NCBI RefSeq assembly: GCF_003018235.1
Contig: NZ_CP027438.1
Length of the DNA: 64,000 nucleotides
Source of the DNA: Escherichia coli
Lineage (GTDB): Bacteria; Pseudomonadota; Gammaproteobacteria; Enterobacterales; Enterobacteriaceae
Direction: 5' to 3' (one strand)
The notes under the pieces are model-generated. The model saw only the letters and a program-made list of their open reading frames with translations, ran no database searches and was not told where the DNA came from. This document shows, piece by piece, positions 62,195 through 62,457 of the stretch. Every line of letters begins with the position of its first letter. The stretch's first letter is position 1. Position numbers and translations under genes: made by a program.

Positions 62195-62457
62195 TCCGAA
62201 AAGAAAAACTAACTCGTTGTGGAGAATAACAAAAATGGTCATCTGGAGCTTACAGGTGGTCATTCGTGGGACAGTATCCCTGACAGCCTACAAAACGCAA
62301 TTGAAGAACGCGAGGCCTCGTTAAGACGATGCCTCGCGTTCTTCAGATGGTTCACCCCTTAAGTTAGCGCTTATGCACTACATCCCCTCCTTATGACATG
62401 GTTGTTCGCTCATTTTCACTCATTAGTATTATAAATAAGATACGAATAAGTGTAACT

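What the first reader, a model, noticed from the sequence alone, without database searches (positions are those of the whole stretch)
62304..62344. Perfect 14-bp inverted repeat downstream of the second CexE-like gene
GAAGAACGCGAGGC, a 14-nt loop, then GCCTCGCGTTCTTC forms a strong hairpin between the IS4 remnant and the CexE-like gene. It could be a terminator or attenuator, or an IS-end structure.
Basis: seen in the sequence. Interest (0 to 1): 0.2.

Follow-up and report, generated by a model that had tools for sequence, protein, structure and literature searches.

The report
Mutated hairpin inside IS186 end
The strong hairpin is real, but it lies inside the right end of a dead IS186/IS421 insertion sequence, where a single copying error (a template switch) turned an imperfect repeat into a perfect one, so it is an ordinary mutational scar rather than a purpose-built terminator.

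Summary
The inverted repeat exists: arms at 62303-62316 and 62331-62344, extending to a 20-bp stem with one mismatch and a 4-nt loop (62302-62345). It is far beyond chance.

It does not lie between the IS and the gene. It sits 31 bp inside the right end of a 5'-truncated IS186/IS421 copy (about 61536-62376).

Canonical IS186/IS421 carries an imperfect 50-nt version at this position. Canonical copies, at about 8,300 E. coli places and about 1,000 plasmid places, match the window version only over 31 nt, on the opposite strand. The window version occurs in only one other record, NZ_CP076711.1.

Window 62315-62345 is an exact reverse-complement copy of the canonical left arm plus spacer. One template switch reproduces the window sequence exactly. 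An 82%-identical relative from Ca. Erwinia dacicola keeps the canonical spacer orientation, so the window form is derived.

IS186-group relatives show no conserved hairpin here. They share a conserved peptide (R-L-x-E-P-P-R-R-R) whose stop codon lies in the terminal repeat. The window mutation truncates that peptide.

Terminator function is not supported on the + strand and is borderline on the - strand, downstream of the small secreted-protein gene.

Side observation: that peptide frame is +1 relative to the annotated transposase in 40 of 53 relatives. This suggests an undescribed recoding site.

The parts
62302..62345 (.). Full stem-loop: 20-bp stem with one mismatch and loop TAAG (62322-62325)
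62303..62316 (.). Left arm GAAGAACGCGAGGC, identical to canonical IS186/IS421
62317..62330 (.). Spacer CTCGTTAAGACGAT, the reverse complement of the canonical spacer ATCGTCTTAACGAG (the spacer is inverted)
62331..62344 (.). Right arm GCCTCGCGTTCTTC, a perfect complement of the left arm; it replaces the canonical imperfect GCACCGAGGCGTCGCATTCTTC
62315..62345 (+). 31-nt tract that is an exact reverse-complement copy of canonical TGAAGAACGCGAGGCATCGTCTTAACGAGGC (template-switch tract). The unambiguously new bases are 62317-62338. The junction microhomologies are GC (62315-62316) and TTCTTCA (62339-62345)
61536..62376 (+). 5'-truncated IS186/IS421 remnant (IS positions about 480 to the end). It has 2.2% substitutions and a 19-nt deletion after 61966 relative to canonical copies
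62354..62376 (+). Right terminal inverted repeat CACCCCTTAAGTTAGCGCTTATG (22 of 23 match canonical)
62184..62324 (+). Remnant of the conserved +1-frame C-terminal coding region (ORF2). It reads EAPDPKRKTNSLWRITKMVIWSLQVVIRGTVSLTAYKTQLKNARPR*. The premature stop TAA sits in the hairpin loop and was created by the template switch
62177..62185 (+). Frame junction TCC_CCC_AGA, the homologue of the IS186 C-run where ORF1 and ORF2 overlap
62458..62823 (-). It is convergent with the IS, and its stop codon lies 81 bp from the IS end and 113 nt from the hairpin

Best explanation
The hairpin is part of the right end of a dead, 5'-truncated IS186/IS421 copy. At this position live IS186/IS421 elements carry an imperfect inverted repeat (quasipalindrome). 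That repeat lies in coding sequence for a conserved C-terminal transposase motif (RHRLNEAPRRRILQ). In this copy a single replication template switch re-copied the left arm and spacer from the complementary strand. This (a) replaced the imperfect right arm with a perfect complement, (b) inverted the spacer, (c) shortened the region by 8 nt, and (d) created a stop codon in the loop. The identity, the location and the fact that one switch reproduces the sequence are shown here. The direction of change (canonical to window) is supported by an outgroup and by copy frequencies. The replication mechanism itself is inferred from the sequence signature. The perfect hairpin was most likely not selected for any function. 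Any effect on the convergent small-protein transcript (pausing, weak termination, 3'-end protection or RNase III cleavage of a 20-bp RNA stem) would be incidental.
For: Window 61536-62376 matches IS186/IS421 (about 94% identity with gaps; 97.8% over aligned bases) and ends in the IS186 terminal repeat. Canonical copies from K-12, IS421, K. pneumoniae and Salmonella all read GAAGAACGCGAGGC ATCGTCTTAACGAG GCACCGAGGCGTCGCATTCTTC. A 71-nt query around the hairpin finds the full window version only in NZ_CP076711.1. In contrast, 8,345 places in E. coli genomes and 997 places in plasmids match just 31 nt, at 100% identity, on the strand opposite to the IS wherever orientation was checked. Substituting the reverse complement of canonical TGAAGAACGCGAGGCATCGTCTTAACGAG for 30 canonical bases reproduces the window sequence exactly. 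In the hairpin region 16 of 30 alignment columns differ, against 2.2% elsewhere in the remnant. The 82%-identical Ca. Erwinia dacicola elements keep the canonical spacer orientation, CATCGCCTCAACGAG. Homogenised arms together with an inverted spacer are the published signature of template switching between imperfect inverted repeats (abstracts of PMC8604942 and PMC7202029). The 41 relatives show no structural conservation at the site (mean z -0.43 against a control of -0.25; Wilcoxon p = 0.89), but the encoded peptide is strongly conserved (HMM E = 1.2e-14 in one frame only).
Against: One junction of the proposed switch has only 2 nt of microhomology (GC), so a two-step history cannot be excluded (an 8-nt repeat-unit deletion plus arm correction and spacer flip). 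Only one lineage carries the allele, so no intermediates are available. The canonical enterobacterial quasipalindrome is itself unusually stable (z -3.5 to -4.8), so some lineage-specific role for the structure is not excluded. On the - strand the hairpin is the first strong structure downstream of the small-protein gene and is followed by a U-containing tail, so a real effect on that transcript is possible and was not measured.
Confidence: 0.8

Rival explanations
1. The hairpin has been co-opted as the intrinsic terminator or 3'-stabilising structure of the convergent small secreted-protein gene (62823..62458, - strand). Its transcript would enter the IS end and fold the 20-bp stem, followed by AUUGCGUUUUGU.
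For: No other terminator-like site lies between the stop codon (62458) and the hairpin. The - strand RNA hairpin is very stable (-32.3 kcal/mol alone; z -6.6). Its tail has 5 U in 8 nt at offsets 1-2. A paralogue in another plasmid has its own terminator-like hairpin about 60 nt after its stop, so such a signal is expected for these genes.
Against: The scan did not call it. The U-tract is interrupted by GCG directly after the stem, with only 2 U in the first 5 nt. The structure is inherited from the IS rather than from the gene. The perfected form is explained by a neutral mutational mechanism in a dead element. No expression data exist.
Confidence: 0.2
2. The hairpin is a functional subterminal structure of IS186/IS421. 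It might be a terminator insulating the element from outside transcription, or a protein-binding site used in transposition.
For: The canonical enterobacterial element has a significantly stable imperfect hairpin at the same place (z -2.4 to -4.8), about 30 bp from the terminal repeat. A Rhizobium subgroup has 7-8-bp stems at the homologous site that persist through synonymous changes.
Against: Across 41 IS186-group elements the site is no more structured than a control region inside the transposase gene, and the last 160 nt are not structured either (mean z -0.24). What is conserved is the peptide encoded there. Arg-rich CGN codons are self-complementary, which can explain the sporadic stems. 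This copy lacks its left end and cannot transpose.
Confidence: 0.1
3. The perfect palindrome is a sequencing or assembly artefact.
For: Only one other database record carries it, and that record may be the same or a sister isolate.
Against: The same sequence appears in the window and in NZ_CP076711.1, embedded in otherwise collinear sequence. The change is an exact 31-nt reverse-complement copy with clean junctions, which is the signature of a biological template switch and not of consensus error.
Confidence: 0.03

Closest known systems
IS186 / IS421 (IS4 family) right end
   Same: 97.8% identity over aligned bases. The terminal repeat matches 22 of 23. The left arm and both flanks of the hairpin are identical to canonical copies. 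The right flank has a C4 block at the same distance from the IS end as at the K-12 IS186A insertion site.
   Different: The left 480 bp are missing and there is a 19-nt internal deletion. The 50-nt canonical quasipalindrome is replaced by a 42-nt perfect palindrome with an inverted spacer. That form is absent from the 8,345 other places in E. coli genomes.
Quasipalindrome-associated template-switch mutations (Ripley model; E. coli work summarised in PMC7202029; spacer inversion described in PMC8604942)
   Same: The starting point is an imperfect inverted repeat. The product has homogenised arms and an inverted spacer. The multi-nucleotide change is explained by one reverse-complement copy.
   Different: This is a natural, fixed event in a plasmid-borne IS remnant, not a reporter-gene revertant. 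The mechanism is inferred from sequence only.
Rho-independent (intrinsic) terminators
   Same: A GC-rich stem, a 4-nt loop, and a position downstream of a gene on the - strand.
   Different: The 20-bp stem is much longer than usual. No uninterrupted U-tract abuts the stem on either strand. It was not called by the scan.
+1 programmed frameshift sites such as prfB CUU_UGA and CCC_UGA sites (review PMC5009743)
   Same: For the side observation only. The ORF1/ORF2 junction of IS186-group elements reads xCC_CCC_U (CCC_UGA in 8 elements; CCC_AGA in E. coli, where AGA is a rare codon by my own recollection). The downstream frame is +1.
   Different: Frameshifting was not measured. 11 of 53 elements need -1 instead. 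No conserved upstream Shine-Dalgarno-like stimulator was looked for systematically.

Membership tests
IS186/IS421 insertion sequence (IS4 family) | Terminal inverted repeat CATAAGCGCTAACTTAAGGGTTG at both ends | tested here: inconclusive
   The right repeat is present at 62354-62376 (22 of 23). The left end is absent because the copy is truncated at about 61536. No second copy of the repeat exists in the window.
IS186/IS421 insertion sequence (IS4 family) | High nucleotide identity to reference IS186/IS421 over the element body | tested here: met
   750 of 767 aligned bases are identical to K-12 IS186A before the hairpin. Megablast gives 93.8% with gaps. RefSeq annotates the matching regions as IS186B or IS421 family transposase.
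IS186/IS421 insertion sequence (IS4 family) | DDE transposase with the Y-(2)-R-(3)-E-(6)-K motif | tested here: met
   The remnant encodes ...CYRLRWQIELAFKRLK (ORF 62000..62194). The full-length protein hits Pfam DDE_Tnp_1. The motif definition is from PMC2266710.
IS186/IS421 insertion sequence (IS4 family) | 10-12-bp target duplication in a G4-N6-C4-type GC-rich site | not testable with these tools
   The left junction is lost. The right flank CACTACATCCCCTCC has C4 at the same offset as K-12 IS186A (GGATCACTCCCCGCC). The consensus itself is recalled from the literature and was not read here.
Rho-independent terminator | Stable GC-rich stem with a short loop | tested here: met
   20-bp stem, 4-nt loop, -32.3 kcal/mol.
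Rho-independent terminator | U-rich tract immediately 3' of the stem | tested here: not met
   The + strand tail is GAUGGUUCACCC. The - strand tail is AUUGCGUUUUGU, with the U-run displaced by 6 nt. The site is not listed by the terminator scan on either strand.
Rho-independent terminator | Transcript 3' ends map to the tail | not testable with these tools
   No expression data are available for this plasmid.
Transcription attenuator | Located in a 5' leader with mutually exclusive alternative structures | tested here: not met
   The hairpin lies 3' of both neighbouring coding regions. No alternative pairing partner appears in the folds.
Quasipalindrome template-switch mutation | The ancestral sequence is an imperfect inverted repeat at the same site | tested here: met
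   Canonical IS186/IS421 has GAAGAA-C-GCGA-G-GC ... GC-G-TCGC-A-TTCTTC. The outgroup Ca. E. dacicola shares the canonical spacer orientation.
Quasipalindrome template-switch mutation | The derived tract is an exact reverse-complement copy of adjacent sequence and explains all clustered differences | tested here: met
   A 31-nt exact reverse-complement match. The one-step reconstruction equals the window sequence. 16 of 30 columns differ, against a 2.2% background.
Quasipalindrome template-switch mutation | The event arises during DNA synthesis (strand switch) | not testable with these tools
   Inferred from the sequence signature only.

The most novel reading that the evidence does not exclude
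The hairpin sits in, and in this copy destroys, a coding region that current annotation does not recognise: a conserved C-terminal extension of about 63 aa of IS186-group transposases. The extension ends at a stop codon inside the right terminal repeat. In E. coli IS186/IS421 and in most relatives it is reachable only by a +1 shift at a conserved CC_CCC_U/A site (CCC_UGA in several elements, CCC_AGA in E. coli). If the shift is programmed, whether ribosomal or transcriptional, the active IS186 transposase would be a 424-aa trans-frame protein and the annotated 370-aa InsL would be a truncated form. That would contradict the stated IS4-family hallmark of 'absence of frameshift' (PMC2266710).
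Probability: 0.5. Interest if true: 0.55.

Novelty: new member of a known kind. Interest (0 to 1): 0.15.

Why it matters
For the finding itself the stakes are small. It removes a candidate regulatory element from this virulence-type plasmid. It also supplies a clean natural example of a template-switch mutation that perfects a palindrome and inverts its spacer. That is useful as a caution: strong perfect hairpins in decaying mobile DNA need not be functional.

The by-product matters more. The region under the hairpin encodes a conserved transposase tail in a different frame from the annotated IS186 gene. If confirmed, this would change how a well-known and active E. coli insertion sequence is annotated, and how its transposase expression is thought to be limited.

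Tried and rejected
- **Rfam.** The 3.5-kb region gave only a sub-threshold plant microRNA-precursor hit on the hairpin (24.8 bits against a gathering score of 71). I rejected it as a generic hairpin match.
- **Promoter and terminator scan.** It did not call the hairpin.
- **Intermediate IS186 relatives in plasmids.** Two tblastn searches found essentially only canonical IS186/IS421 plus a Rhizobium element.
- **Intermediate relatives in viral contigs.** Only canonical copies were found. A genome-contig scan was therefore used.
- **L006/L131 copy as a second witness.** This copy (NZ_LR883053.1 and CP025908.1) is truncated before the hairpin and is uninformative.
- **Literature on an IS186 stem-loop, terminator or frameshift.** The searches found nothing specific. 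An insL search returned unrelated papers. The 2001 IS186 target-site paper is not held in the library.
- **Simple inversion between the imperfect arms.** Rejected, because a reciprocal exchange cannot leave both arms equal to the left-arm sequence.
- **A conserved family-wide RNA or DNA structure at the site.** Tested and rejected.
- **IS231F as a link for the tail.** The profile of the ORF2 peptide did not match the IS231F C-terminus significantly.

Full report
**Observation.**
- The 14-nt spacer pairs with itself. The structure is therefore a 20-bp stem with one mismatch and a TAAG loop, spanning 62302-62345.
- As RNA the 44-nt hairpin alone folds at -32.3 kcal/mol on either strand. In 91-nt context the z-scores are -7.1 (+) and -6.6 (-), and no shuffle does as well.
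- First-order Markov simulations of the window give 0.03 perfect 14-bp inverted repeats with short loops per 64 kb.

**Where it lies.**
- A megablast of 61400-62460 against complete E. coli genomes shows that 61536 to about 62393 matches IS186B/IS421 in 2,768 records.
- Alignment with K-12 IS186A and with a full IS421 shows that the window carries the right part of the element, ending in the terminal repeat CACCCCTTAAGTTAGCGCTTATG at 62376.
- The left 480 bp are missing and there is a 19-nt internal deletion. RefSeq annotates the equivalent stretch of plasmid NZ_CP076711.1 as a frameshifted, N-terminally incomplete transposase.
- The hairpin is therefore inside the IS remnant, 31 bp from its end. 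It is not between the IS and the neighbouring gene.

**What differs from the known IS.**
- Canonical IS186/IS421 reads GAAGAACGCGAGGC ATCGTCTTAACGAG GCACCGAGGCGTCGCATTCTTC. This holds for K-12, an IS421 copy, K. pneumoniae and Salmonella plasmid copies, and 33 copies in viral contigs.
- The canonical form is an imperfect 50-nt inverted repeat that folds at -21.6 kcal/mol.
- The window reads left arm, then the reverse complement of the spacer, then the perfect complement of the left arm (42 nt).
- A 71-nt query centred on the hairpin finds the complete window version in only one record of 20,395 E. coli records and one of 72,556 plasmids. Both are NZ_CP076711.1, which is 99.9% identical to the window locally.
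- The same query finds 8,345 places in E. coli genomes and 997 in plasmids that match only 31 nt at 100% identity, on the strand opposite to the IS wherever orientation was checked.
- Replacing 30 canonical bases with the reverse complement of canonical TGAAGAACGCGAGGCATCGTCTTAACGAG reproduces the window sequence exactly.
- Under a linear alignment 16 of 30 columns differ here, against 17 of 767 elsewhere in the remnant.

**Polarity of the change.**
- Canonical copies are nearly identical to one another.
- The window remnant and another decayed copy (L006) each differ from them by about 2.2%, and from each other by 4.1%. That is a star-like pattern with the canonical sequence at the centre.
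- The 82%-identical elements of Ca. Erwinia dacicola keep the canonical spacer orientation, CATCGCCTCAACGAG.
- The window form is therefore derived.
- Homogenised arms together with an inverted spacer are the published signature of polymerase template switching between imperfect inverted repeats (PMC8604942 abstract; the E. coli quasipalindrome literature, PMC7202029).
- Single-base variants of the same region exist in other copies (UTME-8, L021, E. albertii). The E. albertii change turns a C/A mismatch of the stem into a C-G pair.

**Is the structure functional in the IS family?**
- I collected 80 IS186-group loci from species-representative genomes (35-45% protein identity, plus E. dacicola) and defined the right end of 53 of them.
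- The last 160 nt show no excess folding (mean z -0.24).
- A 66-nt window at the homologous site is no more structured than a control inside the transposase gene: mean z -0.43 against -0.25, Wilcoxon p = 0.89, n = 41. Only the enterobacterial element stands out, at z -3.5 to -4.8.
- What is conserved is a peptide. In almost every element an open frame runs through this region and stops at TAG or TAA inside the terminal repeat. It encodes ...(S/P)xWR...A(I/L)xG...R-x-L-x-E-P-P-R-(R/K)-R...L(S/T)*.
- A profile built from the non-enterobacterial peptides hits IS186A in exactly one of six frames, with E = 1.2e-14. The other frames score E > 0.3.
- The canonical quasipalindrome is the coding sequence for LKNARHRLNEAPRRRILQ.
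- In the window the template switch changes this to LKNARPR followed by a stop codon in the hairpin loop. That outcome is expected for a mutation in a dead element under no constraint.

**Terminator question.**
- On the + strand nothing U-rich follows the stem.
- On the - strand the 121-aa small secreted-protein gene (62823..62458) reads towards the IS. No terminator-like site lies in the 81 bp before the IS end. The hairpin is followed by AUUGCGUUUUGU.
- This arrangement could pause or weakly terminate transcription, or protect a 3' end. However, the U-run is displaced by GCG, the scan does not call it, and no expression data exist.
- I rate an incidental effect at about 0.2. A designed role is unlikely.
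- The 'CexE-like' label could not be verified. There is no Pfam or NCBIfam family, and homologues of 34-46% identity on other E. coli plasmids are all annotated as hypothetical.

**By-product.**
- The conserved tail frame is +1 relative to the annotated transposase frame in 40 of 53 elements, -1 in 11 and 0 in 2.
- At the junction the annotated frame reads xCC_CCC_U in the +1 class: CCC_UCU in 9 elements, CCC_UGA in 8, CCC_UGG in 7 and CCC_UAC in 5. E. coli reads CCC_AGA.
- CCC supplies only 29% of the proline codons elsewhere in these genes.
- Homology to the annotated 370-aa InsL stops at residue 361, exactly at this site.
- Among E. coli-type copies the C-run is C7 (needing +1) in 37, C6 (in frame) in 3 and C8 in 1. 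All three K-12 copies are C7. IS186 is reported as actively transposing in E. coli K-12 and B (PMC5009759, PMC3871371, PMC11708052).
- Natural in-frame fusions exist in metagenomic proteins. P0001 is 83% identical to the conceptual E. coli fusion, and P0003 is 69% identical.
- The literature read here gives 'absence of frameshift' as an IS4-family hallmark (PMC2266710). It also describes CCC_UGA as shift-prone but not known to be used in E. coli (PMC5009743).
- Whether this is ribosomal +1 frameshifting, transcriptional slippage or DNA-level run-length variation is untested. The existence of a -1 subgroup argues for caution.

**Verdict.**
- The perfect palindrome is a private template-switch scar in a dead IS186/IS421 copy.
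- Interest in the finding itself is low. The side observation on the IS186 transposase reading frame deserves its own follow-up.

Noticed in passing
window 62177-62376; L004 (K-12 IS186A) 1517-1721; loci L051-L130: IS186-group elements encode a conserved C-terminal tail of about 63-84 codons that ends at a stop inside the right terminal repeat. The tail is in the +1 frame relative to the annotated transposase in 40 of 53 elements. The junction is a conserved CC_CCC_U/A motif (CCC_UGA in 8 elements, CCC_AGA in E. coli). Natural in-frame fusions exist. This suggests an undescribed recoding event in an IS4-family element.
   Followed up: partly
L001, L006, L008 (C6); L007 (C8); 37 other E. coli-type copies (C7); window 62174-62182 (T5C5): The poly-C run at the frame junction of IS186/IS421 varies in length between copies. 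RefSeq flags the C6 copy L001, which would read through to the terminal repeat, as 'frameshifted'.
   Followed up: partly
L051 (E. albertii) about 1925-1975; L005 (UTME-8); L021: Single-base variants occur inside the canonical quasipalindrome. The E. albertii change (GTCGCATTC to GTCGCGTTC) converts a stem mismatch into a pair and changes Ile to Val in the tail. It may be a smaller correction of the same kind.
   Followed up: no
window 44780-44814: A perfect 14-bp inverted repeat GTCGATGTAGGGAG / CTCCCTACATCGAC with a 7-nt loop, followed by GATTTTTAA. It looks like a classical intrinsic terminator.
   Followed up: no
window 46496-46549: A long, nearly perfect palindrome with arms of about 25 bp: ATGATAATATAAGTAAAGCCCCGAAAA / TTTTTTCGGGGCTTTACTTATATTATCAT. 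It looks like a bidirectional terminator, but the arms are unusually long.
   Followed up: no
L006 (NZ_LR883053.1) and L131 (CP025908.1): A paralogue (34% identity) of the small secreted-protein gene on other E. coli plasmids also has an IS186 copy immediately downstream in convergent orientation, this time truncated at its right end. This may reflect IS186's preference for GC-rich, terminator-like targets.
   Followed up: partly
window 59234-60043 (-), 60978-61385 (+), 62458-62823 (-): An AraC-family regulator (closest NCBIfam models HilD and HilC, below their cut-offs) sits next to two genes for small signal-peptide proteins that match no Pfam or NCBIfam family. The 'CexE-like' label is unverified.
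   Followed up: partly
window 61966/61967 and 61386-61535: The IS remnant has a 19-nt deletion relative to canonical IS186 (CCATGTGCTATTGCTAACA). It is truncated at about 61536 against 150 bp of sequence of unknown origin.
   Followed up: no
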